Source of the DNA: Trypanosoma brucei
Lineage: Eukaryota
DNA: 64,000 nt
Direction of reading: 5' to 3'
Assembly: GCA_000002445.1 (NCBI GenBank)
Contig: CH464491.1
Span: 4,896,001-4,960,000 of the forward strand
The position numbers and the translations under genes are program-made. The notes beneath the pieces were generated by a model that did not search any database, was not told the DNA's origin, and saw only the letters and a list, made by a program, of their open reading frames with translations. Numbering within the stretch: position 1 is the stretch's first letter; each line of letters starts with the position of its first letter. Shown here one piece after another: positions 4,796 through 42,456 of this stretch.

Positions 4796-4939
4796 AAGCA
4801 TTCTAAGGAGTTTTGTTAAATTTTATAAAATTTATAAAGCCTATTATTTTTTTATTTGTTTATTTTAACGTCTTTTGATAAAATCAGTGCTATCATGGAA
4901 TTATATTCGCTTATTTTGTATGTTTTATGGGCATTAGCG

Positions 4940-8010: not shown

Positions 8011-8082
8011 AAGATGAGCCGACACAAAATATGCAGAAAGCGGCCGCCACGCCGATGATAGCGGAAAAAACACACAGACTGC

Positions 8083-8182
8083 NNNNNNNNNNNNNNNNNN
8101 NNNNNNNNNNNNNNNNNNNNNNNNNNNNNNNNNNNNNNNNNNNNNNNNNNNNNNNNNNNNNNNNNNNNNNNNNNNNNNNNNN
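8083..8182. other. Assembly gap (100 N)
   Basis: Run of N. Confidence 1.
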
Positions 8183-8308
8183 TGGGCGCCTGGAGTATGC
8201 GTACCGACAATCANTGTTCCCTGAAGGAAGCTGCTGGCTCTTGGCTTCTTTGATGATACGGGGTACTGGATCTCTGACACCACGTTGAGGTGGCCGGCAT
8301 CGCCAGGG
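8183..8308 (-). mobile_element. ingi/RIME 5'-end fragment (truncated by gap)
   Basis: The reverse complement matches the ingi/RIME 5' terminus CCCTGGCGATGCCGGCCACCTCAACGTGGTGTCAGAGATCCAGTACCCCGTATCATCAAAGAAGCCAAGAGCCAGCAGC. Confidence 0.8.
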
Positions 8309-8590
8309 TATGAAGCAAAATTTTTTTTTAATTTTCTTCGTGCCTTCGTGAGAGTTTCTCCCAACTGGCGCGGCCATCAGCCATCACCGTAGAGCCCTGA
8401 GATGCTATCGGTCTGGCGACTGTGGCAGAGTCTCCCTTTTTTATTCATCCTAACACACCCTCTATAATTTTTGTTGTAGCTCCGCAGTTGAACGGAATAC
8501 AGTAGATGGGGCGAGAAGCCCCCCTCACCCCGGACTCTCCCAAAGATGTCAATTAGCAATCCTTTTGTTTTGTTTTTTGTTATTCGTTTA

Positions 8591-9238
8591 TTATTCTCTC
8601 CCCCTCTTTCTGTTTCTGTTTTTGTTGCTTGTTGACTGCATACCTCCTCTGTCTCTGAGGGTGTCTGGACTATTCCTGCGTCCGGTGCTTTTCCTGCTGG
8701 CTCCACACTCGGCAATAAGGGGGGAAGTTGCAGAAGGGAGAGTGGGTTGTATGACTGTTACCTTAGGTGAGGACTTCACCTGCGGCCGGCTCCGTTCAAC
8801 CGCAATGAGAAACTGCGCCAGCCTTTTGGAGAAACATACATCCTGCACACACTCACCTTCTACCGCAAATCTGACACGTAACTCCTTCAAACCGGGACAG
8901 CTCATCAAGTGCAGCGACGTTTCTTCGCAGTCGCCGCGTTGGCTGGTAACAGCGCGCTCTACCTTCATACCGTGCATCTTCTTTTGATGTAGGGTGAGGC
9001 CAGTTTTGCTAGCACACTGCCTTCCGCATGTCGGGCACACCAACATGGATGTGTTTGTATGCGGGGAATCAGTGGCACACAATTTTGTGCTTTTGCTGCA
9101 TTTAAGCTCGACTCCCTCACCTTTGTGGAAAGCCTTACAGTGTCGGATGAGGGAGTCCCTGCAACTGAGCACTTTTTGGCACACACCACACTGCACCTCG
9201 CCTTTCGCCGGGACGTCAAAAATTTCCCTCACGGGCAC
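8591..9238 (-). CDS. ingi ORF fragment: C-terminal C2H2 zinc-finger region
   Basis: CGVCQKVLSCRDSLIRHCKAFH and CPTCGRQCASKTGLTLHQKKMH. Confidence 0.7.
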   Translation of the reverse strand: MPVREIFDVPAKGEVQCGVCQKVLSCRDSLIRHCKAFHKGEGVELKCSKSTKLCATDSPHTNTSMLVCPTCGRQCASKTGLTLHQKKMHGMKVERAVTSQRGDCEETSLHLMSCPGLKELRVRFAVEGECVQDVCFSKRLAQFLIAVERSRPQVKSSPKVTVIQPTLPSATSPLIAECGASRKSTGRRNSPDTLRDRGGMQSTSNKNRNRKRGRE

Positions 9239-10505
9239 GCTTACGAGGGAATTGCACCACCACGGTACCGTCCTCCGTCACTATGCTTTTATGTTTGAAT
9301 TTCTTGTGTAGTGACAGGGAAGAGCGTGTACCGAAGCTCGCCTCGCACAGGTCACATTGAAACGGCAGCTTCCGTGTATCCTGAGGGGCTGGCGGTGCTG
9401 GGGCTCTACCATCTCCTTGCAATGAGTCTTCGTTCTCTCGCCCCCTTTTCACGCGGCAACTACCGCTGCCTATGCCATGTATTGTTCTAAGGTGGTGTAA
9501 TAGTCGGCCTGGCACTGCGAATTTGGAGGTACAGAGGGTACAATGAAGCACCTGCGGTCTCATCGGGACTCGTGTGCTCGACGGTAGAGGAACGATCGCC
9601 ACCACTGGAGGGGGCTCCAGGGGGATATCCACTATAGGTGTTGCATCGCCGTATTTGATCTTTCGAAGGGCATCAGCTCGCATAAAGCCATGTTTGCTTA
9701 CCATATGCGTTACAGCACTCGAGCGGCATTGGTATGTGGCATCACATTCCGTACATTTGGTCGGTTCGGAGGTTCTCTGAAGAGTGCGTGTCACAACAGT
9801 TGGGACCGTTTGTATTGTTGGTCCTATCGCTGCATGTTGCGGGTTACACCATCGGCACTGTGGAGGCACACTCGAATTGATCTTTCGCAACATCCATCCA
9901 TAGTGCCTTGAAGACCCAACCCGAAAGCGTGCCAGTGCCGTTTCTTCTTCCCTCGTCAGTTCTTCTTTATGTTTTGTTGGAAAGTGGTTGCCCGTGATAC
10001 CAAACCTATGAGTGTTCTCATAGACTTCTTCCGACCTAAGCACTCGCTTCGCATAAGCAATGATGTCGGGGATCAATGTGTCTCGCAACTGTGGTAAATC
10101 TGCGGCCTTTTTCGCCATGTCATCGCAAACCTCATTCTGTTTCACGCCACAATGGACAAACACAAATTGCAGTCGTATACGCACCTTTCTTCTCTGAACT
10201 TGAAGCAGAAGCCTCCATAGTCGTCTTAGAATTGGGTCCGTTGCGGCTAGGGGGCTTGTCTGCAGTACTGTTAACATTGACAGCGAGTCAGAGAAGATGG
10301 ACAACCTGCTCGGTGTGGTTCTGTATGCCGGAAGCCATTTCAGCAGCCGTTGCAGTCCTATCTCTAATGCTACGCATTCCGCTCTGTAACTGAATGAGAG
10401 TTCCCCTGCTCCGGTCTTGGGTGCACAAATCAGCGTGTTGTTTCTATAGAGCAGGGCAGCTGCTCCGGACTTCTCACCGAGGGACACGGATCCATCAGTC
10501 CACAA
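9216..10505 (-). CDS. ingi ORF fragment: RNase H-like region
   Basis: MWTDGSVSLGEKSGAAALLY..., colinear with the matching ingi copy 2 ORF. Confidence 0.7.
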   Translation of the reverse strand: MWTDGSVSLGEKSGAAALLYRNNTLICAPKTGAGELSFSYRAECVALEIGLQRLLKWLPAYRTTPSRLSIFSDSLSMLTVLQTSPLAATDPILRRLWRLLLQVQRRKVRIRLQFVFVHCGVKQNEVCDDMAKKAADLPQLRDTLIPDIIAYAKRVLRSEEVYENTHRFGITGNHFPTKHKEELTREEETALARFRVGSSRHYGWMLRKINSSVPPQCRWCNPQHAAIGPTIQTVPTVVTRTLQRTSEPTKCTECDATYQCRSSAVTHMVSKHGFMRADALRKIKYGDATPIVDIPLEPPPVVAIVPLPSSTRVPMRPQVLHCTLCTSKFAVPGRLLHHLRTIHGIGSGSCRVKRGRENEDSLQGDGRAPAPPAPQDTRKLPFQCDLCEASFGTRSSLSLHKKFKHKSIVTEDGTVVVQFPRKRAREGNF

Positions 10506-10520
10506 TTCGTAGTGCTCTCG

Positions 10521-13076
10521 TCACGGTGGCTCCTTCCCTCTCCGTGCAAAATGCCGTGCAATCCACTTTTCGGAAGCCTCCCTTTTGACATCTTCAGGGT
10601 CATCAGCGCACACAGGCTTTATCTGCGTGTGAAATAGCGGTCGGCAGCTGTGGCGGAGCGTCGATGTCTCTAGTGGGTGCTCGCGTGGCTCAATGCGGAG
10701 GTGGGGATAGGACCGCATGATACGGGAATGTAGGGCTCTGACTGGGTGTTTGCTGTGGTATACTTCTTCAGCACTGCGCCGCAAACATCCGCCTCGTGAC
10801 TCACACATCAGCATGAATTTCATGCTGCGTACAAGAGTGGTCGTCTTGAGTGGCAGGAGGTTTGCTTCCAGCAGAGAGTCCTCTTTGCGCGTCCCATGCG
10901 GTATGCCGGCTATGATGTGACTGGCTTTGTGTTGCGTTGCTGCAAGGAGGTCACGACTTCGTTTTGAAGCGTCCCAGTACCATACCTCAATCCCATACAT
11001 GGTGTGTGCCTGTACGATTACTAGATAAAAAGCTCTCAGTACTTGTCGTCTTGGCCCCCATGTAGAAGCTGAGATGGCTGCTATCTGCAGTAGTCTGAAG
11101 TCCATCTTGCGTCTCGTTTCGGTCGCATGTGTTGCCATCCCCTGCAGACACTGGAATGTTACTCCTAGAAGCTTCGGTGTCCTGTCAGCTCCTATTCTTT
11201 CGCCGTCCAGTTGTAATGTAAGGGGGTGGCGCTCTATACACCCGAAGAGTGTGCACTTTGTTTTCGCTACGTTGACAGACATGAAGTACTCTTGTGACCA
11301 CTGTAACACCACGTTGAGGCCGCATTGCAGTGTGTGGTTGATGACATCCCTCTCTGTGTGTCTCGCAAGTAGCGTCAGGTCGTCTGCAAAGAATCCGTGC
11401 TGCAGTAACGGCACTTCTGCAAGGCGTTGGCTCAACGAGTTCATGACAATAATGAACATGATTGACCCAAGGACAGTTCCTTGTGTCACTCTTCGCTCAA
11501 ATGTTCTGCTTCTGGAAAGCTTCTCCTTGAATCTCACTCTGCCAGTTCGGTTACTCAGAAATGATACGCACCACTTCACAATGTGGGGTGATACCTTCAT
11601 TCTGTGCATTTCCCTCGCAATTTTGTCGTTGTACACTGTATCGAATGCCTTCTCGTAGTCAACGAATACAGCACCCGTACGAGATTGATGCGTGGGGCGG
11701 CAAAGGGCAGCACCGACCTGCAGGAGTTGTTCGAGTGTTGAGCATCCGGGGCGAAAGCCTGATTGCTGCGGCGTCAGCTGGGACTCAACAGTGTCTCTAA
11801 GCCTCGCGGCAATTATGCGCTCCATGACTTTGCAGAGACAGCTCGTGAGCGTCACAGGCCTGTAAGAATCGAGGTCCTCCGCCTTTTTTCCGGCCTTCAG
11901 GATGGGGATGATAACACCAGTCTTCCATGCAGGCGGCACGACTCCCCTTCGTAGGCTGTCATTGAATAGCCTCAGAACAACATTCTGCGCTGTGTTACAG
12001 AGATGTTGCAGTGCCTCGTTGTATAAGCAATCAGGTCCGGCTGCGGATCCACTCGGTAGCAGTTTGATCGATCTCCGTAGTTCAGCCATAGTGATGGGAC
12101 TGAACTCACTCGCTATCGTCTTTATGGGTGCCGGTGGGTGTGAGTCGGGGTGCCTTCTTGCCCGGGATGAGTACAGTTTAATGAACCTCTCAGCTTGACG
12201 GTAGTCCGTGATGGCCGCGTTATCAACAAGTACCGCCGCTGTGGTTAGTGGTCGTGGCGCATATACCTTCTTGACAATGTGCCAACTGCAGCGGTCTGAC
12301 ACCGCAAGTATGGAGCATAGCGTGTTCCATCTCTTCTTTGTGGTACGGTCCAGTATCTGCTTACACGTGGCTACCAACTTTTCCCTTCGATAGGAGGGTC
12401 CGCAACCAGCGATCTCTTCATCGAGTTTCGCGAGCTCAGGTGTCCAATGTGGTGGCGTTGCTCTGCAGCCACGGGGGACGGAGACCTTCGTCGCAATGCG
12501 GATGGCGGAGCTCAATTTCTGTTCCAGGGTGTTGACGTTCTTCTCTCTACCAATTTTCCTGCAGAGCTCGTCAACCTTGAGATGGAAATTCCTCCAGTCA
12601 GCTTTTAGCCATGCGTACATGGGCTTTCGAAGCCGCGGGCAACTCAGTGCATCTGTGTCGTCTCCAACGATAACGTCAAAAAATATGTGATGGTGATCAC
12701 TATCGGGAGAATACAGCGATGTCCACGTGTAAACTGTGCAATTCCTTGACAGTGCCACATCAGGGGTGGACTCTCCGTGGTGGCGCGCGTACCTGGTGTA
12801 CTCACCAGTGTTGCAGACCAGAAACTGGTTGTCAATGCACCACTGTGTGAGGGTTTCACCCTTGGTATTTGGTGGGCTCGCGCGATCCCATGCCAAAGCG
12901 TGTGCGTTAGCCTCTACACCGATGAGCTGGGCCCCGTCAGTCGTCAGAAGCGTATCTAGGTCAGTTGCCGTGAAGGTGTGTTTTGGTGGGATGTATGCCG
13001 ACGTGACGGTCAGCGCAGTTTCACGTGCAAGGTGAATTGTTGCATGCACTTGTTCAATGCGACCAACAACGGTCAT
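10521..13076 (-). CDS. ingi ORF fragment: endonuclease C-terminal part plus reverse transcriptase
   Basis: RT motifs FVDYEKAFDTV and FADDLTLL. Ends at an in-frame TGA before the RNase H segment. Confidence 0.8.
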   Translation of the reverse strand: MTVVGRIEQVHATIHLARETALTVTSAYIPPKHTFTATDLDTLLTTDGAQLIGVEANAHALAWDRASPPNTKGETLTQWCIDNQFLVCNTGEYTRYARHHGESTPDVALSRNCTVYTWTSLYSPDSDHHHIFFDVIVGDDTDALSCPRLRKPMYAWLKADWRNFHLKVDELCRKIGREKNVNTLEQKLSSAIRIATKVSVPRGCRATPPHWTPELAKLDEEIAGCGPSYRREKLVATCKQILDRTTKKRWNTLCSILAVSDRCSWHIVKKVYAPRPLTTAAVLVDNAAITDYRQAERFIKLYSSRARRHPDSHPPAPIKTIASEFSPITMAELRRSIKLLPSGSAAGPDCLYNEALQHLCNTAQNVVLRLFNDSLRRGVVPPAWKTGVIIPILKAGKKAEDLDSYRPVTLTSCLCKVMERIIAARLRDTVESQLTPQQSGFRPGCSTLEQLLQVGAALCRPTHQSRTGAVFVDYEKAFDTVYNDKIAREMHRMKVSPHIVKWCVSFLSNRTGRVRFKEKLSRSRTFERRVTQGTVLGSIMFIIVMNSLSQRLAEVPLLQHGFFADDLTLLARHTERDVINHTLQCGLNVVLQWSQEYFMSVNVAKTKCTLFGCIERHPLTLQLDGERIGADRTPKLLGVTFQCLQGMATHATETRRKMDFRLLQIAAISASTWGPRRQVLRAFYLVIVQAHTMYGIEVWYWDASKRSRDLLAATQHKASHIIAGIPHGTRKEDSLLEANLLPLKTTTLVRSMKFMLMCESRGGCLRRSAEEVYHSKHPVRALHSRIMRSYPHLRIEPREHPLETSTLRHSCRPLFHTQIKPVCADDPEDVKREASEKWIARHFARRGKEPP

Positions 13077-13760
13077 ACCTATCTAGGCTGGTAGGTCCTC
13101 CCTCACTAGTATTGATACACCACCTCCTTTGCAGTTACGAGCTATTCCGTGATGTTGGTAGCCAGCAACGCTAAAGCAAGCCGCCCCTCCAGGCGTCATC
13201 CTTGTCTCACTCAACAGACAAAAGGCGATCCGCTCATCAACAAGGGTTTTGTGGAGTGCTAATCTCTTTCCTTGAGATAGCCCGGCGCAGTTTCACTGCA
13301 TCCCGCACAACGACGGGCTGGGATTCTCTTCCACATCACCGGACAGCAGCATCTTAGTGCGGATGATACTGCTGATGGCACGCTGGCACGTGCCCAGGGA
13401 CCGACAAATGAAAAACGGTGTCCCAGCAAGACGCTGCTGATCCCTGTGCTGTATGATGCCGTATCCGGAGCAAAGCAGTGTTCCCCATGAAAGGAACGCT
13501 GCTGGCTCTTGGCTTCCCCCGATGATACGGGGTACTGGACCCTGGCACCACGTTGAGGTGGCCGGCGTCGCCAGGGAAATTTTCTATTTGCTACAAAACT
13601 GGAAACGTAGCAAGAATTTTTCTCTTTTTTGCAGCCATCTGTGCATTCTTTCTTTCCTTTCCTTTTGGATTTCCCCTGCTTGCTCTCCTTTTTCTGCTTT
13701 AGCTTTGCATTTTTAAAATATAAGTGTCACTATCGCAGTCGAGAGTTTTGCATTCCTCTG

Positions 13761-15008
13761 CTATTTTTTGGTGTGTTTGGCGCATTCTTGCGTCAGTGTG
13801 CTTGTCCCAGTTATTAGCGTTAGCTTTCCACTGGTGTGTACATGTGCCGGTACTGTTGATAAGAGGTGGTTAAAAACTGCTTCCGCTTGCCAGCTGAGCA
13901 TGCTCATTTCCGCAATTACTTTATTTTGCTGCGCACAACCGGCCAGTGTCTTCTCTATTTCTTGCGCTGCAGCCTCTAGGTTATCTTCGTATCCAGTTGC
14001 GGCTGCTAATTTGGTAGTTTTGTGTTTCGTGAATTTGCTGAATTCTGCACAGGCGCTGTCAGCTTGGGTGCCGCGGTGGGCTAATGTTCCTTTTGTACCT
14101 ATGTAAACTGCGATGTTCCCGCCTGCCGCGAACGTTTTCCACATTTGCCGGGGTCAGCCCGCTGCTGTCCGAACCGCCGCTGGTGTCAGGTCGCCTTTGT
14201 TGTACGCTTCGCACATGGTTATCAGTGCATCGCCTGCGTTGGTGTAGGTTGTAGGAGTTGCGGCGTCCGCGGCGATGTTCCGTGTGGTTGTTGGAGCTGA
14301 GCAAATGTCGATCGTCATCGTTCCCGAGTGTTTGCTGCACACACAAGCCAGCGACGTGCAAATGGAGTCGGTGGCGTTATCGTCTTTGCAGATGTCTTGC
14401 CTTGTTGAACCCGTTGGGGTCATGCACCGGTCTTCGTCGGTTTTGCCTGCCGTGTCCTGTCCAAACACTGCTTTGTTTATGAAGCCATCTATGTGAGCTT
14501 TGTCCCCCTCAATGGCTGGTTTTATATCTGTGGCATGCTGTTCCGCTAACCGCCTAGCGTACTCGGTGATCGCGGCTATTGTTAGAGCCGCCTGGCCTTC
14601 CGCACTGCGCATTGTGCTGTCGCCTATGTATTTGTTCCCAGGTCTGACGCCTTCGCTGTGAGCTGTAATGTTCGCTTTCGCATGAGCTTTCCACTGTTTG
14701 TGGCACTGTGGAAGCTCGTTATTGTCTTTGCATGGGTTTTGTCGGCGTTAACGATTTGCGGCTTTGTTGGGAACTGCTTTGCCCAATCGGGGTGTGCAAG
14801 TGACATGTCAAGGGCTTCTATTATTTCGTATGTTGCTTCGACATCTTCGACAGCTGGTAAGACTGTGTCCTTTGCCTGCCGCAAGTTTACAATGTCGCAT
14901 AGGACATCTAGTTCTGCTAGGTTTTTTTGCGTTAGCGTCGTCTGCTGCGCTGGCTTGCTCGGCAGAAATAAGCAAAGCCAAAAACACAACGGTGACTAGC
15001 ATATTCAA
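13761..15008 (-). pseudogene. VSG pseudogene, N-terminal domain (frameshifts, no C-terminal domain)
   Basis: Signal peptide MLVTVVFLALLISAEQASA. VSG-like segments in three frames (14624-14989, 14154-14612, 13761-14144). Ends about 185 bp from the ingi 5' end. Confidence 0.7.
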
Positions 15009-16514
15009 TCCTTTGTTCCACTACTCTTCGCCATTGGAAAGTAATCCGTTGAAGAATGTTTACTTGGATCGCTACCGGGGCTAAAACTGGCTGGCGGCGG
15101 CTTTGAAAACACATGTACACAACGCTGTCGCTGCTCATATCCGGTCTTTAATATATTAAAAATTTTTTTTTTGCAAAGCCACTTCTCTTTTGCTGCGCGT
15201 TACTTCCATCTTGTTGCCGACGCTGTCACGCGGTCTGTTTATGCGTAACAAACTCCCACATAGAATTTATGCTGGCTGTTTTGAGGCTAAGTATATTGGC
15301 GTTCAGCAGGCTGTAAGCATCATTCCTTTGAGTATCGCCTCATTTACTAATTGTGGTGTTTTTGTGTATCCGGGTTGGGGTAAAATTGAGTGTTTGTTTC
15401 AGCATCTGTTCTATTTATGGATATGTGGTCGAAAAAGTTTAAGTTATGGCTGGTGCCACTAGTGTAGATAAATCAGCTTCGTAAATGATTGGTTATTATT
15501 ATTATTTTTTCTGGACATGCACCGACTGCGGGGACAGTAGCTCTAATAAAAACAACGAGTTGTTTCCAAAATTTATTCAACTGCTTCTTTTAGCTCAACC
15601 CTTTTACTATTATTATATTCCCCCTAACTAACGATACAGAAAGTTGTAAACATAGCAGGTGCGTATGGAAGATAAATGTTTATTACTGGTTTAAGGCTGT
15701 TATGTTCCACTCACTAGCATTCTTATAGACAACATTGTCTCTAATCTTCTAATTCTGCTATTCAACATTAATTTTAGACGTCAACATGCTTTCTAGAAAA
15801 CAAAAAAAGCATGTACCCCATATAATAACTTCGCGACTTCAACTGAGTATAGGGACTACTAAGAGTTCCTTTTCCTGCGGTATCTCATGATGCGATAACA
15901 TTTTTATTCCTGTACTTACTACTCTGCCTTTGTGCATTGTTCTTTTTGCTTGTAGTGATTCAACATTTCGTTCTTGTTTGTGTGTTCTCACAAGGTTTTG
16001 TTCCACCATTAGATATTTTGTCTATTTCCATCGCTTACTTGGAGTAGTTATTTCTGTTGAGTCACAAATGTTTATATGAATTGCACATTATTTATCAGCT
16101 CAATTCCATGCTTTGTGTAGAGTTATATTAATTTTAATGCCTTGACTGAAAATAATGCATTCGCCGGACACTTCTTGAGATCATATTGGCAGTGATGCTC
16201 TTATATGCCTTCCACTTCCATCTCTCCCTTGTGAAGAATATACATACACCATTCGGCTTGAAACATGGACTTTCTCCATAACTCATTGTCCTATCTATTA
16301 TTTTCCTGTGTACAATGATGTCCGCTGTTATCTTTGTTTTTTAACCTCGCATAATCTATATTCCAATTTCTTTGTTTATTTTTATGCGTTTACTTCAACA
16401 TTATTAGTCGTGAACTCTCACAGTCTTTCACTCACTCGCTCTCATTTCACCTTACAATTTTTAAGGTTCATCTATGATTTCAGTACATTCACTCTTCACT
16501 GTTTTCTCATCACG

Positions 16515-18414: not shown

Positions 18415-20596
18415 AAGCTAATAAAATACACAAATGCTCCTAAACTCTCTTGCGTTTTTGACGGCCGCATTGACAGCTTCCGTCGCCACAACAAATATGA
18501 GGGCTGACTCTAACAACATCTGGTTAATTCCGTTGCAGTATTTCTGTTAAAAGAAAAAGTAAGCAAGCCTTCTAAATTTATAAACACCGAAATTTCTCCG
18601 CGTGTTGTGGTAACAAATTCCTTCGAACATTAAATTTTGGTCGCTTCGTAGAGTTACGTAAAAGGCACTCAGTTAAGCCAAATAATACCCACTTTATAGT
18701 TTAAATCCACTTTATCTTTATCTATATCTATATCCATATCGTCTCAAACACTTAAGATTCATGGTCCTCAACGGCCTCTTTCATCTGTTAAGTTGCCGTT
18801 TCCGCTTTGATTCGGAATAAAAAGATGGCATTGTGTTTTTTTTAGCGGAAAAGACTTCACTTATTTCTCTGTTTTTTGCAAGGTATTGTTTCTTTTTGTT
18901 GCGATAGCTTGTTTCAATACCTCTGTTTATCGTATTACGTGCATTTTGTGAAGTCTTCGACTGTAGAATCGTCCATTTTTATCTTTGTGAAGTGCTCGTT
19001 CATTGTTGTTAAAATTGTGTCGTCAATTCCCTTAAAGAGCGTGTTTCCAGGGTCGTTCTTGATAACGTCTTTGCTTTTTTCCGTCCTTCAAAGTGTCTAA
19101 AACGTGATACATGTCATTTGGTAAGCTGGTTAAGTTAATCCTCACAATCCTTTCGATTATTCATTTCCGCCTTTCCTCCACGTTCTAGAGTGTTTGCCTT
19201 CCGCCTTGCGAACTTGTAGCCGCTTAATCGGCCGTATTTACAGTGCATGCAGAGTGCACATGTGGTTGAACTCTACAATATTTTCTGCGGCTTCGTTGGC
19301 AGATTTTGTTAAACTTATTAGAAGAAAGAATACCTCTATTAGAATCTTGGCTCCTTATTTTAGTTCAGCAAATATTTGGACGAAAATAATCCGTAAAATT
19401 AATAAAATACAAAATTCTTCAAATGTCAGTGGAAGAATAAAAGTTATCATGACTTTCAGGTTGTATTTTTAGGGATTACATGTAGACAAAACATGTGTTT
19501 TTCTACTAATTTCCACTTTTAATTCTAAGTTAGTTTATTTTACATCTATTGAATCTATCATTTATGCGTTGCAATATCTTTCATAATCTTTTAATTCGCA
19601 TATTTCGTTTGATTTGGAATTATTACGTAAAGTTGTTGTTTTTCTGTTGAAGTATTTGGCGTTTTGGCTATATAATTCATTCTAGGAAACTGTTTTTGTT
19701 GTTTTTTAAGACTAGGCAGTATATGTCTCGAAAGCAATCTCCTTGTCTCTTCGTCTCACCTTTTGCATATCTTTAGCTATGCATGCATCCGAAACAGCTG
19801 TTATATGAACAACTCGCCGCCTAAATGCTGTTGGGTCTCACCGTCACACCCACATTGCAGTTGGGTGGCGTCGTTTTCAAGCTTCTATACTTCTTACAAA
19901 AATTGCTTCCTAGCCAGATTCATGCTCTATTTTAAGAATTTTCAGCGTTTTTACTCTTCCTTTTCTGTGAATAGTAGTCTATTTGTAGTTCCATTTTTAA
20001 AATACACAATAATGTTTTATAGCTTCCCACAAATGTCAGCCATTATTATTATATCTTATGAGAAGACTTCTACATTACACCACACATACCAGATCCGTTC
20101 CTCGTGCCTCTCCTTCTTGTACTTCACAGCTGTACGTCAGAATCCGCCATCTGATTTAAAACTACAGTGACCATCATCACCTCCGTCGTCGCATCTATCT
20201 ATTATACAGTTAAATAGCGCGCACGATCTTTTCCTGCATTATTTTTCTTCTTTCCTTTTCCGTTCCGGTAATCCACTTCTTTCACTCTGTATTTTTTAAT
20301 TTTTTATGTACTTCTACCATCGCTGCGAATAACGTAGTAATTCCATGTAACTTCACACTTTATTCTCTCTCTTCTCCCGTTATCCCCTACAACATCTCCT
20401 TTTATGTGATAATGCACACATTCATGTTTTTGTGTTTGAAACACCGCATATTCCTTCTTCATTTCTGTCTCAGTGTCTTTCTTTTTCTATATTTCGGTAA
20501 ATAATATTTCTCTACCCACTTACTTATTCTCATAGTTTCCTTATCATTTTTTAAGGATTTTTACATTTCACTGTTATTTTGACTTTTTCTGCTTTA

Positions 20597-21699: not shown

Positions 21700-21840
21700 C
21701 GAATAAGGGTTAGGGTCCGCATAACAAAAGAGCTGCTGCACCATTAAGAAAAAAGTGAAAAGTCTCGACGCTTTACTGCTAGTAAATAAAAATATTTTTA
21801 GTGAGAAGACAATGAAAACCCTAACCCTAACCCTAAACGG
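21700..21840 (-). repeat. Telomere-hexamer-bounded element, copy 1
   Basis: GAATAAGGGTTAGGGTCCGCATAACAAAAGAGCTGCTGCACCATTAA...CTGCTAGTAAA...AAACCCTAACCCTAACCCTAAA. Homologous to the copies at 31005-31195 and 55510-55600. Confidence 0.6.
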
Positions 21841-22222: not shown

Positions 22223-23787
22223 TTAGAAAATCAAGCCCACAAATGCAGAAGAAACCACGCTGAGAGCGAATTGCTTGTTTAGGAGAAAACTACCATTTCG
22301 GCATTTCTCTGTATCCTTGTCATCCTCATTATCTTTACCCTTCCTCCATGCACAATTTTGTTTCTCGCCTGTTTTGTCACTTTCACAATCAGGCTGATTT
22401 TGGTGCCTTGCACATCCAGATGTGGTTGCAGCTCCTGCACCTGCTCCTACTGTTTTGGTTGCTTGTTGTTCTGCTGCTTTTGCTGGATCTAATGAGCACT
22501 TTTTGTTTGCATCAGTGGCATTGCCGTTCCACTTGCAGGGATCATTGCATTTTTCGCTTTTTGTATGTTTGTTGCATTCTGCTTCCGTGGGGAGCTGTTT
22601 CTTTACTACTGGGGCTGTTGTGCTGAGGACCTGGACGGGATTTTGGTATAGATAGCTGTGGACTGTTGCGTTTATTAAACGCAGCTGGGCTTCAATTGTA
22701 TGAAGTGCGCTTAGGGTTTTGTACTTGTTTTGCAGCTTCTGTGCAGTATTCACTAGGTGCTCAGCCCATGGTATCCCAGCCTTTCCTTTGGTGAAAAGCT
22801 CCGGTTTGTAGGCGGCACACTTGCCTCCATTGCTAGCTTTGTTGCCGGTGCAGCCAGCTTCGCCGGTGGTGTCTAGCTCGCCAAGTACGTAATTTTGCTT
22901 GGTGGTGCTGCCCTGCTTGTGTTTCAATTTTCCTATGAATGTCGCCAGCGCCGACGTGACCGTTGCTTCGTTTAGTTCGTGGTGCGGCGAAAACGCTTGG
23001 CAGCACTTGAGTAGGTTGTCTGCTTCGGCGAGGTAGTTTGTGTCCGCGGCCGGTGGTGTGTCCAGGTTTGTAGCGGTGCACGTGTTAACGCATGCCTTGC
23101 CGTGTGTTGCTGTGCTCGTTCCATGTTTAGCACATAAACAAGTTATGTCCAGTAGATTGAGCTGCCGGCTTTGTTGTCGGCATCGGCGCCGCTTTTGCCA
23201 CAGCTGTCTTCTCTGGTTTTGCTTGCTGGTATTGGCTTGAATTCCGCCGGTTTTGTTATGGTGCCATACAGGGCTAAGTTCTGTTCTGCCGTTACGTCGG
23301 TCATGGAAAGCTCTTTGGATTTGCTTTGTGCTACCTTAAAGAGTTCTAGCGCATGTTGAGACAAAAGTCTAACCCGGTTCGCGGTTTTCTCGGTCGGCGC
23401 TAGGGTCGCCCATAGTGCTTGAGCCTCTTTGGTTCGTGTTTTGGGAGTTGATTTGGCTTCCTTGTACAGCGGCCAGTTATTTTCCCACCCTGGTCTGTCC
23501 GCCTTTTCTTGCGCTGTTAGGCTGCTCCAATCCTTGTCCTCTAGAACGGCGTTGGTGAAGTTTTGGTCACTAACACTGAGGTTTGCTGCGAGTATGTCTA
23601 GGGTGAGTTGCTTATTTTGTGTGTCGTCAGTTATTGCTGCCGGTTGAGTTTGTGCTAAGTTAGCTAGCGCGCAGAGTGCCGAAAATGGCTCTATGTTGTC
23701 ATTGTCGGCGCTGTTAGATTGTACACGTTTTAGTGCCGATAAAGACAGTACTAGAGCTGCTATTAGAAGCAACGTCGCCATTTGCAT
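22223..23787 (-). pseudogene. VSG pseudogene (internal frameshift)
   Basis: N-domain ORF 23143-23787 (signal MQMATLLLIAALVLSLSA, SALCALANLAQT). C-terminal ORF 22223-22927 ends CRNGSFLLNKQFALSVVSSAFVGLIF. Confidence 0.8.
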
Positions 23788-24059
23788 CTGTTGGCTTTTT
23801 TACTGCGTTGAGAGAGAAAATTGTATAGTAGAGTAAGTTTGATGTTGCTCTTTTATGGGTTATGTTGTACATTAGAGGTTCTTTCGGTTATATGTTGCGG
23901 CATGCTTTCGCTGAAGAACGTGGTCTCACATTCTTAACAGTTACTTGCACTATCTTTTCACATTCTTGAATGAATAGAATCTGATATTTACCATTAGGTT
24001 CCGCTTTTCCACTACACAACGCACAATCACACCATGGCATTACGTTCTTCCCATTATCA

Positions 24060-24297
24060 CCGGACAGCAGCATCTTAGTGCGGATGATACTGCTGATGGC
24101 ACGCTGGCACGTGCCCAGGGACCGACAAATGAAAAACGGTGTCCCAGCAAGACGCTGCTGATCCCTGTGCTGCATGATGCCGTAGCCGGAGCACAGCAGT
24201 GTTCCAAAAGAGAGGAATGCTGATGACTCTTGGCTTCCCCCGATGATACGGGGTACTGGACCCTGGCACCACGTTGAGGTGGTCGGCATCGCCAGGG
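24060..24297 (-). mobile_element. Solo 5' half of RIME/ingi (about 238 bp) flanked by a 10-bp direct repeat CCCATTATCA
   Basis: The reverse complement equals ingi positions about 1-240 (CCCTGGCGATGCCGACCACCTCAACGTGG...GCTGCTGTCCGGTG). CCCATTATCA sits immediately on both sides (24050-24059 and 24300-24309). Confidence 0.7.
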
Positions 24298-26049
24298 TCC
24301 CCATTATCAATCTACCTACGCCGAATAATAATGGACAGTCTATTATTCAAAGTTCCTTGTCTTCACCAGGTAATATTATGGTTTGTCAGCAGAACAAATG
24401 CACAAAACCCACAACCTTCACCATTACATATATATCTTTTCGAGTGAAATATAAATCAAATCTCTTCTTGAGTCGTTATTTTCTGTTCGGCGGTTTCACG
24501 AATGCAGCTTTTTTACTCTTTCTTTTTCCCCTTACTTCCACTTTCTGTTGCTTCTTCTGAAGATCACGTAGTGACTCCTTTTATCCTGTACACTGCACCA
24601 TCTCCCCTCCATCATCTCCTTGTGTATGACGATGCCCATCGTCATGTTTGTGTATAGAATTGCACATATTCCATGTTTCCCTCTCTTTTCTTTTGGCTCC
24701 ATACGCTTGATTGAACAATAATAAGAATCACCATGATCTTCGTCTCACTCACTCATACTCACTCATACTCACTCAGCGCTTCTTCGCACTGCTTAACTTT
24801 AGCATTCACTATCAAATTAAAGAAACACAGTTTATATTGTCTTTGAAACTTCTTCTTACAATTTTGGGCAAAATACGCTTTTCTTTAGGTCTTTTCAGCG
24901 CTCGCCAGGGTCAAATACTAAGTTTTTTTTCGTAATCGCAGCACTTGATCGGGTAGAAAGCTCATTTTTATATTCTATATGCTTAATACTTCATTTTGAG
25001 CATGGATGATAGACGGACTGAGGAGACGCTTTTGTTGCTGTTTTATTAGAGACTCCGTTCATTTGAATTTTATTTCCTTTTTTTTCCATTTAAATTGTTG
25101 TGCTTGTCACCCGGCCGTGCTTATTTCTTTTCTTTCAAATTATCGATACAGAAAGCTGTAGTGGGAGAAATACTGGTAAGAAGTACTGATTCTAGTACTC
25201 CTGCCACAAGAAAGAATGGACTCAATTTTATTAAACGTCAGTGATATCGTTTTAATATACCAAATATGATACTTAAGTTAACTTTTTAAATCTTTACTTG
25301 AATCTGTAAAATAAAGAATTTCTTGCTTCTATCTAATACCTTTGCTAATTCACCCAGGTGTGGAGTCATTAAGAGTTAGTGTTTATACTCTATATTGTGA
25401 GTTAATAAAGCTCTTACTTTAAACTTTTATCTTCTGCTTATGCCTTTGTGTCGTTCACTGCCGTCTTTTTAAAAAAATTCTATTAGTTTTGTGTGTTGTC
25501 ATAAGTTTTTTCGCAATAAGTAGCTACGCCATTTGCCGTATCTTCTTTTTACTGCTTAGTAACAATAACAGATGCATTTATATAAACCTATATCATTGTC
25601 TTCTTTACTCACTGCTATTAACTGTTTTATATACATAATAGCGCCTCAAATAAAAATAATGAATTTTTCAAATAATTTCTTGGAGCATGTTAGAAAAAAT
25701 GCTCTTAGTCGGGTTTAACTTGTAATCCTTCCTTTTGTTAGCTACAATGAGTTTGTTTAGTCTTTAAAGTGCACAGTGATCTCCATTTTCGGTCGATCCA
25801 TTATCTTTTTGTAAATTGTAACCATAATTGCTTTATTTTTGTATGAAATGCCACATATTGCATTAACATTTACTTCTCGATGACCTGATGCTGTTTCTTT
25901 TAATAATATCCCTCGTACATCGTCTATTTCACACTTACTATTACACTCATTCACTTAGTTCCATTACTCACTTGTTCCCATTGCATCTTCTTCATTGTTT
26001 GAAGGGCTCCTTTTTTAGCGACCCTAGGGTCTACAGCATTACTACTTTC

Positions 26050-26259
26050 ATTATAATATTCGTATATACACGCTCACAACACTCTCCTATTATCATTATC
26101 ATTACTATCATCATTATTATTATTACTGCTCTTATTATAATATTCGTATATACGCATACTCACAACACTCTCCTATTATCATTATCATTACTATCATCAT
26201 TATTATTATTACTGCTCTTATTATAATATTCGTATATACGCATACTCACAACACTCTTC

Positions 26260-26310
<51 letters not shown>

Positions 26311-26353
26311 ATAACCTTATTATTATTATTATTATTATTATTTATTATTATTA

Positions 26354-26388
<35 letters not shown>

Positions 26389-26400
26389 TATTATTATTAT
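26050..26400 (-). repeat. 70-bp repeats (3 units, reverse) with long (ATT)n tract
   Basis: TTATAATATTCGTATATACGCATACTCACAACACTCTCCTATTATCATTATCATT occurs three times, then (TTA)n from 26250 to 26400. Confidence 0.85.
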
Positions 26401-26577
26401 TACCACAACAAATATCCAGATAACGAAAAGAATAATAAAATTAAAATAGCACTCATTTTTAATACCATGCAACCCTACTACTAATTTGAACTAGTAGGCC
26501 ACTATCATACCATAATTTATATTTTCAGACTTCTATAAATTTCACCAGTTTGCACATTTTTCAAAGGTTGTACGAAA

Positions 26578-37892: not shown

Positions 37893-39713
37893 AGTCTACT
37901 TATTCTTGGCGGCACCTTTTTTTTGTTACTACTGTGGTTTTGGTGTTCTGCTTGTAGGTCTTTTTGTTAGTGTTTAAAAGGGGGAAGATCCTTGTGGTTT
38001 CTGATGTTAACGGTGCGAGATTGGCCGCTTACATGGAGGTTGGTCGTCTGCGGGTTGGCTTATAATTAATGCATCAACTTTCCAAACTTGTACACAAAAT
38101 AACCTCTTCCCTTCTTGCCTCTGTTTTTTTGTCGCTACGCTTCTCTCTTTGTGTCAAACGCTATAAGCTCCCATATTTGCGTGCTATATCAGTGTTGAAA
38201 TATCTTCCCAGTTACCACTTTTGTCAGCACAAGTATTGTAACTAACATCGCAGTTTCTCGACCAAACGTCTGCGAAACTACAGGCGCTTTCCAGTTAGCT
38301 CCATCACCGCTTTTCTTCTCACTTAGCGATACTGTGGCATAGTTAAACCTAATCTTGCTTATAGTTGAGCTTAGTAGATTTGTTGAGGCTTTTTCATTGT
38401 TTTTCGGTGTACATTTTGGTGCTTCTTACCTTGGGTTTGTTGGTGAACTCTTTTTGGATGTTAAATTGTTTAATTGGGGATTTATTGTTTCTAAAGCTTT
38501 TATTCTGTCTGTCATACTGACTCAGTCCTTTTGTGTAGCGCATAAAGATAAATGCACAAAGAAATCACTCTATATATACTCATTTTGACACTACCCCTAG
38601 TTATTTTCAGATTTCTATTTACTTTTTTCATTCGTTCAAATATTAGAGTTTGACCATATGTAGCGTGAAACTGAGAACTGGATGTTGTTTCTAAGTTGGT
38701 GTTAATGTGTTAGCCCTCTGGCCATCTCTGTACGCAATAATTCTCCGCTTGTGGTTACGCCTTGTTTGCGCACATTATCTTAATAATTGTTATGATTTCT
38801 TTGATTTCTGTTTTATCGTGCACTTTTCTAGCATATGGTGCCCTGCCGGAAGCTATTGTGCATCTAGACGTATTTTTATTTTAATTGTCCCCTTTGTGTC
38901 CCCTTTACTTTAATAATAAGATTCTGTGGATGCCGCTGAAGTGGCCGCTGCTTATATTAGATTTTTCTGAATGTACTAATACCGCTGTAGAATGCTCTAC
39001 TATACTTGATGCCTTGATACTTCTTGCGGTTTCAGTATTAGGTAATTTATTATTGGGCTATTATATATATTGATTATCCTTTGAAAGACAAATGTCTCAC
39101 TTATTATAATATGTAAGTTATCATTTTCAATGGTCGTGCCTTTCACCTGTTCACCCTCTGAAAGGTTAGCTTTGTCATAGAAACCCATTGTGTCAATGAC
39201 GTAAATTTTGTTTTGCGACACTTTTCTACTTTATCTTTTAACCATATCGTTCCATATTAAATTCGGTAGAATATCTTTATATTTCTGGCAGTCCATGTGA
39301 CTCCGAAAGCAGTGCATATATTTCTATGCCTGAAAATTCAAAGCGTGTGTTCTTTATTGGTTCTACTTGGAGGAAGATCTTCATTACATGTTTCATAATC
39401 AAACATGTACCGTTGCTGTTCTGCACTGAGACGGTTCCTCTTCTGCATGTCCTTCCGATTGTTGCTTATTTTACATCACCAGATTATTTTGGCTCGAAAC
39501 TTGTTTGTAACTAGTAGGCTCCGTCCCTTTTCTTTTCTTTCATTTTGTGCTTCAACTCTGCGTAAGCAAGAACTCTTATATAATTTGTCCTTACTACGAA
39601 AACAAGAAATTTGGAAGCCGTATGTCAGTGTGAATTTTGCAGAGTTCTGCCGCTAATTCTCCACTCTTCACGAAGGTTATCTAATGGTTAATACGTGCTC
39701 TACTCCCTTGTAA

Positions 39714-40283
39714 CGCCAGCCACCTCAACGTGGTGCCAGGGTCTAGTGCTCCGTCTCATCGGGGGAAGCCAAGAGCCAGCAGCGTTCCTCTTTTGGAACA
39801 CTGCTGTGCTCCGGCTACGGCATCATACAGCACAGGGATCAGCAGCGTCTTGCTGGGACACCGTTTTTCATTTGTCGGTCCCTGGGCACGTGCCAGCGTG
39901 TCATCAGCAGTATCATCCGCACTAAGATGCTGCTGTCCGGTGATATGGAAGAGAATCCCAGCCCGTCGTTGTGCGGGATGCAGTGGAACTGCGCCGGGCT
40001 ATCTCAAGGAAAGAGATTAGCACTCCACAAAACCCTTGTTGATGAGCGGATCGCCTTTTGTCTGTTGAGTGAGACAAGGATGACGCCTGGAGAGGCGGCT
40101 TGCTTTAGCGTTGCTGGCTACCAACATCACGGAATAGCTCGTAACTGCAAAGGAGGTGGTGTATCAATACTAGTGAGGGAGGACCTACCAGTCGAGACCG
40201 GTATAGCCGTTGTTGGTCACATTGAAAAAGTGCATGCAACAATTCACCTTGCACGTGAAACGGCGCTGACTGTCACGTCGGCA
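39714..40283 (+). mobile_element. ingi 5' fragment (about 570 bp) in + orientation, abutting the poly(A) end of the - strand ingi
   Basis: GCCAGCCACCTCAACGTGGTGCCAGGG... encodes MLLSGDMEENPSPSLCGMQWNCAGLSQGKRLALHK...ARETALTVTSA. It ends one base before the poly-T at 40284. Confidence 0.85.
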
Positions 40284-40551
40284 TTTTTTTTTGAATTTTC
40301 TTCGTGCCTTCGTGAGAGTTTCCCCCCACTGGCGCGGCCATCAGCCATCACCGTAGAGCCCTGAGATGCTATCGGTCTGGCAACTGTGGCAGAGTCTCAC
40401 CTTTTTTATTCAGCCTAACACTCTCTATAATTTTTGTTGTAGCTCCGCAGTTGAACGGAACACAGCAGATGGGGCGACAAGCCTCCCACCCTAGACTCTC
40501 CCAAAGATGTCAATTAGCAATCCTTTTGTTTTGATTTTTGTTATTCGTTTA

Positions 40552-42444: not shown

Positions 42445-42456
42445 GGATCCATCAGT

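What the first reader, a model, noticed from the sequence alone, without database searches (positions are those of the whole stretch)
24047..24312. Solo 5' half-RIME (238 bp) with a perfect 10-bp flanking direct repeat and no 3' half or poly(A)
The element corresponds to ingi positions about 1-240 only. That is where the RIME 5' half normally joins the 3' half. It is flanked on both sides by CCCATTATCA (24050-24059 and 24300-24309). A 10-bp perfect duplication at the exact boundaries is unlikely by chance and looks like a target-site duplication. Yet a 3'-truncated, poly(A)-less copy is hard to produce by target-primed reverse transcription from the 3' end. Either a half-RIME can be mobilised as a unit, or a full RIME was inserted and its 3' half was later removed with unusual precision.
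Basis: seen in the sequence. Interest (0 to 1): 0.5.

Follow-up and report, generated by a model that had tools for sequence, protein, structure and literature searches.

The report
Tail-less ingi/RIME head with target duplication
A 238-bp front end of the trypanosome jumping gene ingi/RIME sits in a surface-antigen gene array, flanked by the normal 12-bp insertion footprint but lacking the element's tail, which suggests that copying began in the middle of the RNA rather than at its end.

Summary
The window is Trypanosoma brucei TREU927 chromosome 11, in a subtelomeric VSG array. On the minus strand, 24297->24060 is ingi/RIME positions 1-238, about 96% identical to the consensus. It has no 3' half and no A-tail.

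The flanking repeat is the canonical 12-bp ingi/RIME target-site duplication, matching at 11 of 12 positions (TGATAATGGGGA / TGATAATGGGAA). It abuts the element's first base. A GTAGG core of the published ingi endonuclease signature lies upstream in the correct register.

Two details need correcting. The element ends 5-10 nt before the true RIME A/B junction (ingi 247/248). The first four TSD bases (TGAT) equal ingi 239-242, so the 3' junction carries microhomology.

I found two more tail-less, 3'-truncated copies with 11/12 12-bp duplications in T. b. gambiense, ending at about 219 and at 420. A published table gives indirect support: 7 of 19 truncated copies show at least 2 nt of overlap between the truncation end and the predicted TSD (P=0.003).

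- **Best explanation (about 0.55):** target-primed reverse transcription that started internally, or on a 3'-truncated RNA.
- **Main rival (about 0.28):** microhomology-mediated deletion of a full RIME's 3' half.

No orthologous empty site could be retrieved. The copy is already catalogued as "RIME A, 3' truncated". Interest is modest.

The parts
24310..24331 (-). 22 nt upstream of the 5' TSD copy, where the ingi4 (Tbingi/TbRIME) endonuclease signature AxxxxxxxTxxxGTxGGxTxxx is expected. The sequence here is TTATTATTCGGCGTAGGTAGAT.
   Evidence: The signature is taken from PMC3820030. Four of 7 signature positions match, including the contiguous GTxGG core in the exact register. Background frequency in the window is 0.0026 for the core and 0.07 for at least 4/7. 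Control RIME L001 and ingi2 both score 7/7.
24298..24309 (-). 5' copy of the 12-bp target-site duplication, TGATAATGGGGA on the minus strand. It directly abuts the first base of the element.
   Evidence: The same 5' flank is printed for this element in the Khan et al. 2015 table.
24219..24297 (-). The 79-bp signature (Pr77 hallmark) at the 5' end of the ingi-clade retroposon. It is intact, with one substitution relative to the consensus.
   Evidence: A 71-nt consensus pattern matches with 0 mismatches. Alignment A2. The role of the hallmark comes from the literature (PMC2323293, PMC4035085). There is no Rfam hit.
24060..24297 (-). Body of the truncated element, ingi/RIME positions 1-238, about 96% identical to the consensus. 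It ends inside the 2A-like motif: MLLSGD, then unrelated sequence.
24056..24059 (-). TGAT. This 4-nt junctional microhomology is both ingi positions 239-242 and the first four bases of the 3' TSD copy.
   Evidence: The published table reports the element end as 242.
24048..24059 (-). 3' copy of the 12-bp target-site duplication, TGATAATGGGAA on the minus strand (11/12 match to the 5' copy). No A-tail lies between the element and this copy.
22223..23787 (-). Context: a VSG pseudogene in two ORF pieces (VSG_B N-terminal domain and VSG C-terminal domain). It lies 270 bp downstream of the element in the same orientation.
26038..26402 (-). Context: canonical 70-bp repeats plus a TAT run upstream of that VSG cassette. 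The element lies between these repeats and the VSG start.

Best explanation
The element is the product of a single, non-canonical retrotransposition of a Tbingi or TbRIME RNA.

Inferred sequence of events:
1. The ingi endonuclease nicked its usual kind of target, 12 nt upstream of where the element now begins.
2. Reverse transcription did not start at the poly(A) end. The nicked bottom strand, whose 3' end is complementary to TGAT..., paired with the internal UGAU at RNA positions 239-242. Alternatively, the RNA had already lost everything 3' of that point.
3. cDNA synthesis ran from position 238 to the 5' end.
4. Second-strand cleavage 12 nt away produced the normal 12-bp duplication.

The result is a 5'-complete, 3'-truncated, tail-less copy. 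It is a dead-end copy, not a member of a propagating 'half-RIME' family. It has since accumulated about 4% divergence and one TSD mismatch.

What is shown: the anatomy, the 12-bp TSD, the register of the upstream motif, the 4-nt junctional microhomology, and the existence of two more such copies elsewhere. What is inferred: the order of events and the priming step.
For: 1. The TSD is 12 bp (11/12) and abuts the canonical first base CCCTGG, exactly as in two complete control RIMEs with 12/12 TSDs. Twelve bp is the conserved TSD size of Tbingi/TbRIME (PMC3820030).
2. The GTAGG core of the published ingi4 signature lies in the exact register upstream of the TSD.
3. In TPRT the first-strand nick is at the 5' edge of the TSD. 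Any cDNA primed there must therefore join the TSD at its first base, and it does, with a 4-nt overlap (TGAT).
4. The structure recurs.
   - L004 (T. b. gambiense chr 10, ingi 1-420): 5' GGCTACTCTACA|CCCTGG, 3' ...GGCTACC-T-GGCTAGTCTACA. The TSD is 11/12, there is no A-tail, and the signature scores 5/7.
   - L007 (T. b. gambiense chr 2, ingi 1-~219): 5' ACATGCTGCACA|CCCTGG, 3' ...CCCGC|ACATGCTGCAGA. The TSD is 11/12 and the signature scores 6/7. There is a 2-nt overlap plus a 7-nt ATGCTGC patch.
   - The L004 junction has no junctional microhomology and would need a 4.8-kb deletion. That fits MMEJ poorly in an organism without NHEJ (PMC3045614).
5. Indirect genome-wide support comes from 19 5'-intact, 3'-truncated copies in the Khan et al. 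table. The predicted TSD prefix equals the ingi bases at the reported truncation end (at least 2 nt) in 7 of them, against a permutation mean of 2.3 (P=0.0033). Random deletions would not tie truncation ends to TSD starts.
6. The divergence (about 4%) and the single TSD mismatch are mutually consistent with one old insertion.
Against: 1. Sequence alone cannot separate this model from a full insertion followed by a deletion between TGAT(239-242) and TGAT at the TSD start. Both give the identical product.
2. Four nt of pairing is little, and the statistics for microhomology are modest. The per-copy local-similarity P values are 0.12, 0.11 and 0.017, with a Fisher combined P of about 0.01.
3. The signature match for this copy is only 4/7, which on the whole-motif score has P about 0.07.
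4. The L004 junction shows a similarity next to the junction, not overlapping it (TGGCTACC followed by TGGCTAG). Simple annealing does not explain this.
5. Only three TSD-flanked cases were inspected directly. Three other truncated copies (L003, L006, window fragment 39704-40284) have no TSD.
6. Internal initiation has not, to my knowledge, been shown experimentally for any ingi-clade reverse transcriptase. I found no paper on it.
7. No empty or filled orthologous allele could be retrieved.
Confidence: 0.55

Rival explanations
1. Ordinary insertion followed by microhomology-mediated deletion. A complete RIME (about 500 bp), or an ingi, inserted here with a normal 12-bp TSD and poly(A). Later a break inside it was repaired by MMEJ. 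The repair annealed TGAT(GTGGAA) at element positions 239-248 to TGAT(AATGGGAA) at the start of the 3' TSD. This removed the 3' half and the A-tail (about 265 bp for a RIME).
For: T. brucei lacks detectable NHEJ and joins breaks by MMEJ, with mean total deletions of 284 bp (range 81-948). Microhomologies are typically 5-20 bp and tolerate mismatches (PMC3045614). Deleting a RIME 3' half would be a typical size. The junction carries a perfect 4-nt overlap plus further patches: TGAT-TGG-AA versus TGAT..TGG.AA. The locus is subtelomeric, where the same paper reports that MMEJ contributes more. L007a has a 7-nt ATGCTGC patch of the kind MMEJ uses.
Against: Nothing makes a deletion end exactly at the first base of the TSD, yet three independent truncated copies do so. 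Across the published table, truncation ends are also tied to TSD prefixes. L004 would need a 4.8-kb deletion with no junctional microhomology. In L007a, MMEJ through the main ATGCTGC patch should have kept TAAG, which is missing. Four perfect nt is below the typical 5-20 bp range.
Confidence: 0.28
2. A distinct mobile 'half-RIME' family: a roughly 240-bp non-autonomous element (RIME A only) that is repeatedly mobilised by the ingi machinery, analogous to NARTc in T. cruzi.
For: In the ingi clade, the 5' 79-bp signature is the only sequence shared by all autonomous and non-autonomous members, and NARTc derives from L1Tc by a 3' deletion (PMC2323293). The Khan table lists two further chromosome 11 copies ending at 243 and 248 with different 5' flanks and no adjacent 3'-half row.
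Against: There is no A-rich tail, which every described ingi-clade family has. The end (238/242) is 5-10 nt short of the RIME A boundary. The three TSD-flanked truncated copies inspected end at different positions. No second copy with this end occurs in the window or in seven fetched T. brucei loci. The 1-220 'family' in the table shares 100 nt of identical 5' flank, so it spread by segmental duplication, not retrotransposition.
Confidence: 0.06
3. No retrotransposition footprint at all. Either the repeat is a chance repeat, or the locus is an old degenerate ingi (DIRE) whose first about 240 bp were refreshed by gene conversion from a RIME or ingi. That would give a sharp drop in identity at the boundary.
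For: MAFFT and one BLAST hit extend a weak alignment of the downstream flank to ingi 250-290, with TTGTGCG..AGTGGAA matching 16/20. The window does hold a genuinely degenerate ingi elsewhere, at about 58969-60300.
Against: Collinear similarity of the flanks to ingi is not significant. For the element, the downstream flank has P=0.13 and the upstream flank P=0.64 against ingi2. The best case is 0.008 against one copy, before correction. Gene conversion does not create a 12-bp repeat abutting the first base of the element. The 11/12 repeat at both exact boundaries has an empirical background of 2.7e-4 per pair.
Confidence: 0.04

Closest known systems
TbRIME / Tbingi (ingi4 subclade of the ingi clade of non-LTR retroposons, T. 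brucei)
   Same: It has the same 79-bp 5' signature and about 96% identity over positions 1-238. It has the same 12-bp TSD abutting CCCTGG and the upstream GTxGG motif in register.
   Different: It lacks the RIME 3' half (ingi about 5000-5250) and the A-tail. It stops at 238/242, whereas RIME A runs to 247/248.
'Internal priming' insertions of L1 and Alu in hominids (Srikanta, Sen, Conlin and Batzer 2009, Gene; cited from my own knowledge, not checked here)
   Same: Both are 3'-truncated, tail-less copies that still carry TSDs and an endonuclease-type target, explained by the nicked target annealing to an internal stretch of the RNA.
   Different: L1 primes on internal A-rich stretches with a T-rich primer. 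Here the overlap is an arbitrary TGAT, and the enzyme is an ingi-clade APE-type endonuclease/RT with a fixed 12-bp stagger. This has not been demonstrated for trypanosomatid elements.
NARTc of T. cruzi and the SIDER families (5'-signature-only non-autonomous derivatives)
   Same: All are short derivatives that keep the 5' hallmark and lose the coding and 3' part of the parent (PMC2323293).
   Different: NARTc and SIDER are multi-copy families with A-rich 3' ends. SIDERs are degenerate (11-18% divergence) and about 570 bp long (PMC3820030). This is a single tail-less copy nearly identical to ingi.
MMEJ deletion scars in T. brucei (Glover, Jun and Horn 2011, PMC3045614)
   Same: It shows junctional microhomology, a plausible deletion size (about 265 bp) and a subtelomeric location.
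   Different: It has only 4 perfect nt. The deletion end would have to coincide with the first base of the TSD, and no parental allele is known.

Membership tests
Tbingi/TbRIME (ingi clade, ingi4 subclade) | 79-bp 5' signature (Pr77 hallmark) starting CCCTGGCG | tested here: met
   A 71-nt consensus pattern matches with 0 mismatches at 24227-24297 on the minus strand. Alignment A2.
Tbingi/TbRIME (ingi clade, ingi4 subclade) | High nucleotide identity to ingi/RIME beyond the signature | tested here: met
   95% identity to both window ingi over positions 1-242. About 9 differences from the 8-sequence consensus in 238 nt.
Tbingi/TbRIME (ingi clade, ingi4 subclade) | 12-bp target-site duplication flanking the element | tested here: met
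   TGATAATGGGGA versus TGATAATGGGAA, 11/12. Control RIMEs L001 and L002 have 12/12 TSDs.
Tbingi/TbRIME (ingi clade, ingi4 subclade) | Conserved motif AxxxxxxxTxxxGTxGGxTxxx immediately upstream of the TSD | tested here: inconclusive
   Four of 7 positions match (background 0.07). The GTxGG core is in the exact register (background 0.0026). Controls score 7/7.
Tbingi/TbRIME (ingi clade, ingi4 subclade) | A-rich 3' terminus | tested here: not met
   The element runs ...GCTGCTGTCCGG directly into the TSD, with no A-run.
TbRIME specifically | The 5' half (ingi 1-247/248) joined to the 3' half (ingi about 5000-5250) | tested here: not met
   The ingi 3' 600 nt match only the two full ingi in the window. 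The RIME junction was determined from L001 and L002.
TbSIDER1/TbSIDER2 | A degenerate element of about 570 bp that shares only the 5' signature with ingi | tested here: not met
   The copy is 95-96% identical to ingi through position 238, far beyond the signature. The SIDER definition comes from PMC3820030.
Propagating 5'-only family (NARTc-like 'half-RIME') | Several copies with the same 3' end, an A-rich tail and different TSDs | tested here: not met
   There is no tail, and no second copy with this end in the window or in seven T. brucei loci. Other truncated copies end at 219, 307, 310, 420 and 582. The copies ending at 243 and 248 in the Khan table could not be inspected.
Internal-priming / truncated-template TPRT insertion | A TSD of the element's normal length, an endonuclease-type target, 3' truncation without a tail, and a junction at the first TSD base, often with microhomology | tested here: met
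   All are present in this copy. The structure recurs in L004 and L007. Whether priming really was internal cannot be tested with these tools.
MMEJ deletion scar | Junctional microhomology (typically 5-20 bp) and an identifiable undeleted parental allele | tested here: inconclusive
   There are 4 perfect nt plus imperfect patches. The parental allele is not retrievable.

The most novel reading that the evidence does not exclude
The ingi-clade retrotransposition machinery needs neither the element's 3' sequence nor a poly(A) tail. It can start target-primed reverse transcription at internal RNA sites, or at broken RNA ends, guided by a few bases of pairing with the nicked target, while the 5' Pr77 region supplies the only cis requirement. 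Tail-less, TSD-flanked 5' fragments such as this one would then be a regular by-product. They would also be the raw material from which 5'-signature-only families (RIME A-type, NARTc, SIDER) arise.
Probability: 0.4. Interest if true: 0.55.

Novelty: new variant of a known kind. Interest (0 to 1): 0.35.

Why it matters
Ingi-clade retroposons are unusual in one respect. Autonomous elements, their short partners (RIME, NARTc) and the Leishmania SIDER regulators share only the first 77-79 nt. How the machinery recognises its RNA, and how the short families arose, are open questions.

Tail-less copies with an intact 5' end, the correct 12-bp footprint and the endonuclease motif act as natural experiments. 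They suggest that the 3' end and poly(A) are dispensable for integration. If that holds, it gives a simple route to new non-autonomous families.

There is also a practical point. Truncated ingi/RIME pieces in VSG arrays are not all deletion debris, which matters when they are used as markers of rearrangement. The claim rests on three directly inspected copies plus an indirect table-based test, so it is a lead rather than a result. The element itself is an inert, already catalogued fragment.

Tried and rejected
1. **Orthologous or paralogous empty site.**
   - Exact look-ups of the three nearest VSG ORFs found nothing on record.
   - A homology search with the adjacent VSG pseudogene N-terminus gave no hit.
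   - The search with the intact VSG 2.4 kb away found only an 88% VSGnome protein (VSG 1211) with no contig.
   - BLAST of a reconstructed empty site against the window and the fetched loci gave no match across the junction.
2. **Downstream flank as a degenerate continuation of ingi (old element plus gene conversion).** This was suggested by MAFFT and BLAST. I rejected it because the collinear similarity is not significant and because it cannot make a TSD.
3. **Insertion into a 70-bp repeat.** Rejected. The canonical 70-bp repeats are at 26038-26402, 1.7 kb away.
4. **TbSIDER membership.** Rejected on identity.
5. **Window fragment at 8212-8308 as another truncated copy.** It is uninformative because it is cut by an assembly gap (N run at about 8082-8181).
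6. **Rfam scan of 23800-24500.** No hit, so the HDV-like ribozyme reported for Pr77 is not represented there.
7. **The copies ending at 243 and 248 in the Khan table.** They are not in this window and their 3' flanks are not published, so they remain unchecked.
8. **The 2009 Eukaryotic Cell paper with the insertion consensus (PMC2756862).** It is not held. I took the consensus from PMC3820030 instead.
9. **RIME or ingi as the parent.** The 238 nt carry no diagnostic differences between the two.
Full report
**What the window is.** ORFs around the finding carry VSG domains (VSG_B, Trypan_glycop_C). The window holds two full-length ingi retroposons on the minus strand, at 8321-13576 and 40285-45534.

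The element is listed in a published table (Khan et al. 2015, Data Brief, PMC4660242, suppl. file 1). The row reads NT_165288 (T. brucei TREU927 chromosome 11), 20126-20367, ingi positions 1-242, strand m, "5' ok, 3' tr", "RIME A". Its printed 100-nt 5' flank ends in ...CGGCGTAGGTAGATTGATAATGGGGA, which is identical to the flank in the window. A second row, for the 15-582 fragment, fixes the offset at window = record + 3930. The window is therefore a subtelomeric VSG array of TREU927 chromosome 11, and the copy is already catalogued, although nobody has interpreted it.

**Checking the observation.** CCCATTATCA occurs only at 24050-24059 and 24300-24309. The sequence between the two copies is the 5' end of ingi/RIME on the minus strand.
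- The element's first base (CCCTGGCG...) is at 24297.
- Identity to both window ingi is 95% over positions 1-242.
- In my numbering...GCTGCTGTCCGG ends at ingi 238, which is window 24060.
- The last 600 nt of ingi match nothing else in the window, and no A-run follows the element.

First, the repeat is really 12 bp. On the minus strand the 12 nt directly before CCCTGG are TGATAATGGGGA. The 12 nt directly after ...TCCGG are TGATAATGGGAA, an 11/12 match. Twelve bp is the conserved TSD length of Tbingi/TbRIME (PMC3820030). I verified that anatomy on two complete RIMEs fetched from T. b. gambiense. L001 has TSD TGAAAAAAGATT and L002 has TTTAATTATTTA. Both are 12/12, both abut CCCTGG and both follow the A-tail.

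Second, the RIME A/B junction in those RIMEs is at ingi 247/248 (...GGTGATGTGGA(A)|CTCCAA|AAAAGGATTGCC). The element therefore stops 5-10 nt before the junction and is not strictly a "half-RIME". Its 238 nt carry no base that distinguishes a RIME parent from an ingi parent.

Third, the first four TSD bases, TGAT, are identical to ingi 239-242. The 3' junction therefore has 4 nt of microhomology.

**Is the duplication a real insertion footprint?** In this window, 12-mer pairs at this spacing with at most one mismatch occur at 2.7e-4 per pair, tandem repeats included. Here the pair sits exactly at both boundaries of the element.

The published Tbingi/TbRIME insertion signature is 5'-AxxxxxxxTxxxGTxGGxTxxx^xTxTxxTxxxxx-3', where ^ marks the first-strand nick and the following 12 nt are the TSD (PMC3820030). 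At that fixed register, RIME L001 and window ingi2 score 7/7. The element scores 4/7, with the contiguous GTAGG core in the exact position. The background is 0.0026 for the core and 0.07 for at least 4/7. I conclude that the 5' junction and the TSD were made by the ingi machinery.

**Alternative rejected: an old degenerate ingi with a refreshed 5' end.** MAFFT, and one BLAST hit to the inverted 5' fragment at 39720-39988, suggested that the downstream flank continues to resemble ingi 250-290. Tested against a null of non-ingi 70-mers from the window, the collinear similarity is marginal to absent. The P values are 0.008 against one copy and 0.12-0.13 against ingi1 and ingi2. The upstream flank gives P=0.64. 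Gene conversion also cannot create a TSD. I dropped this alternative.

**Are there others like it?** A protein search with the ingi 5' reading frame returned T. brucei-group ORFs. These let me fetch seven loci from T. b. gambiense DAL972 and T. equiperdum. They contained four further 5'-intact, 3'-truncated copies, and the window fragment at 39704-40284 makes a fifth. Two of the fetched copies have the same anatomy as the finding.

- **L004 (gambiense chr 10, ingi 1-420).** This is the orthologue of a TREU927 row in the Khan table. Its junctions are 5' GGCTACTCTACA|CCCTGG and 3' ...GCTGGCTACC-T-GGCTAGTCTACA. The TSD is 11/12, there is no A-tail, and the signature scores 5/7.
- **L007 (gambiense chr 2, ingi 1-~219).** This belongs to the multi-copy "1-220" group of the table. 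Its junctions are 5' ACATGCTGCACA|CCCTGG and 3' ...CACCCGC|ACATGCTGCAGA. The TSD is 11/12 and the signature scores 6/7. Ingi reads CCGCAC-TAAG-ATGCTGC at that point, so the TSD start shares AC plus a 7-nt patch with the RNA.

Three other truncated copies have no TSD: L003 (1-307), L006 (1-310, in an RHS pseudogene) and the window fragment 39704-40284.

The Khan table gives indirect genome-wide support. It prints the 5' flanks of 19 distinct 5'-intact, 3'-truncated copies, and most carry the signature in register. The predicted TSD prefix equals the ingi bases at the reported truncation end (at least 2 nt) in 7 of the 19. The permutation mean is 2.3 and P=0.0033. That pattern is expected only if truncation ends often sit at the TSD start with short microhomology.

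**Mechanism.** In TPRT, the 3'-OH that primes cDNA synthesis is the bottom strand complementary to the first bases of the TSD (established model; nick position). Any cDNA started there joins the TSD at its first base, wherever on the RNA it began.

A copy that is 5'-complete, 3'-truncated, tail-less and joined to the TSD at base 1 is therefore what one expects in either of two cases. In the first, the primer anneals to an internal stretch of the RNA, here UGAU at 239-242. In the second, the RNA had already lost its 3' part. This accounts for all three TSD-flanked copies, including L004. L004 has no junctional overlap and would otherwise require a precise 4.8-kb deletion in an organism that shows no NHEJ (PMC3045614).

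I give this explanation about 0.55. The anatomy is shown. The priming step is inferred.

**Main rival.** A complete RIME may have inserted normally and later lost its 3' half by MMEJ between TGAT(GTGGAA) at 239-248 and TGAT(AATGGGAA) at the TSD start. T. brucei MMEJ uses microhomologies of 5-20 bp, tolerates mismatches and gives mean total deletions of 284 bp (PMC3045614). A loss of about 265 bp would be typical.

Several points count against it:
- Nothing makes a deletion end at the first TSD base, yet three independent copies do so.
- The overlap here is only 4 perfect nt.
- In L007a, repair through the main ATGCTGC patch should have retained TAAG, which is absent.

I give this rival about 0.28. 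For this single copy, the two models predict the same sequence. Only an allele from another strain can separate them.

**Other rivals.** A propagating half-RIME family is unlikely (about 0.06). There is no A-tail, the end is not the RIME A boundary, the truncated copies end at different positions, and the "1-220" group shares its flanks and so spread by segmental duplication. Two chromosome 11 copies ending at 243 and 248 with different flanks and no adjacent 3'-half row could not be inspected and keep this possibility barely alive. A chance repeat or gene conversion gets about 0.04.

**Comparison with known systems.** The element is a defective copy of Tbingi/TbRIME. It meets the signature, identity and 12-bp TSD criteria, and it fails the A-tail and 3'-half criteria. 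It is not a SIDER.

It resembles the "internal priming" L1 and Alu insertions described in hominids (Srikanta et al. 2009, cited from memory). It also resembles, in outline, the way NARTc relates to L1Tc. I found no paper describing TSD-flanked, tail-less, 3'-truncated ingi copies or internal priming in trypanosomatids. The key 2004 and 2009 papers are not in the library, so I cannot exclude that they mention such copies.

**Verdict.** The copy itself is an inert, already catalogued fragment. The interest lies in the recurring anatomy, which hints that the ingi machinery can integrate RNA lacking its 3' end. Interest is 0.35, and I classify it as a new variant of a known kind.

Noticed in passing
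window 39704-40284 (+) and 44952-45524 (-): A 580-bp copy of the ingi 5' end (positions about 1-582) lies tail-to-tail against the poly(A) end of full-length ingi2 (40285-45534, minus strand). It forms a 95.5% inverted repeat with ingi2's own 5' end across about 4.7 kb. Neither piece has a TSD. Such a structure could give a long hairpin or dsRNA, and it points to a recombination or inversion event.
   Followed up: partly
window 8082-8320: ingi1's A-tail is followed by a 12-nt spacer (TTTTGCTTCATA) and then the 5' end of another ingi/RIME (8212-8308, minus strand). This is the tandem arrangement described in the literature. The second element is cut by an assembly gap (N run at about 8082-8181). 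ingi1 itself has no matching TSD at its 5' end.
   Followed up: partly
window ~58969-60300 (+): A degenerate ingi-related element (DIRE-like). It has a 75-79% match to the 5' signature at 58969-59038. It has a recognisable remnant of the 2A-like region at about 59210-59260, and further ingi-like patches near 59360 and 60270.
   Followed up: no
window ~8000 and ~45500-46000: The coding strand of the VSG array and the AT skew flip twice: plus strand for 1-8 kb, minus strand for 8-45.5 kb, plus strand from 46 kb. Both switch points coincide with the two full-length ingi, which suggests that ingi elements bound an inverted or rearranged block.
   Followed up: no
window 21817-21836: A short interstitial telomere-type repeat, (AACCCT)3.3, lies about 400 bp beyond the 3' end of the VSG pseudogene 22223-23787. 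This is possibly a trace of a former telomeric location of that cassette.
   Followed up: no
window 24060-26402: The truncated element lies between the cassette's 70-bp repeats (26038-26402) and the VSG pseudogene start (23787), in the same orientation as the gene. It would be carried along in any 70-bp-repeat-initiated gene conversion of this cassette. Its intact Pr77 region points towards the VSG.
   Followed up: partly
window 13339 region (ingi1) and 45297 region (ingi2); element at 24060: The ingi ORF begins MLLSGDVEENPGPS, a 2A-like 'DVEENPGP' motif. The motif is intact in ingi2 but reads ...NPSP in ingi1 and in fragment b. The truncated element ends inside the motif, after GD.
   Followed up: no
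Khan et al. 2015 suppl. file 1 (PMC4660242), TREU927 genome: Truncation ends of 5'-intact copies cluster at ingi 320-326, with five different 5' flanks on chr 2, 7 and 11. They also cluster at 242-248, with three different flanks on chr 11. The cause is unexplained. It could be a preferred RNA 3' end, or an artefact of the BLAST reference used by the authors.
   Followed up: partly
L005 9304-15244 (T. equiperdum chr 8, CM010679): A full-length ingi (9993-15244) is directly preceded by an inverted copy of the ingi 3' end (positions 4573-5249, at 9304-9989). This is another head-adjacent inverted arrangement, like the one around ingi2 in the window.
   Followed up: no
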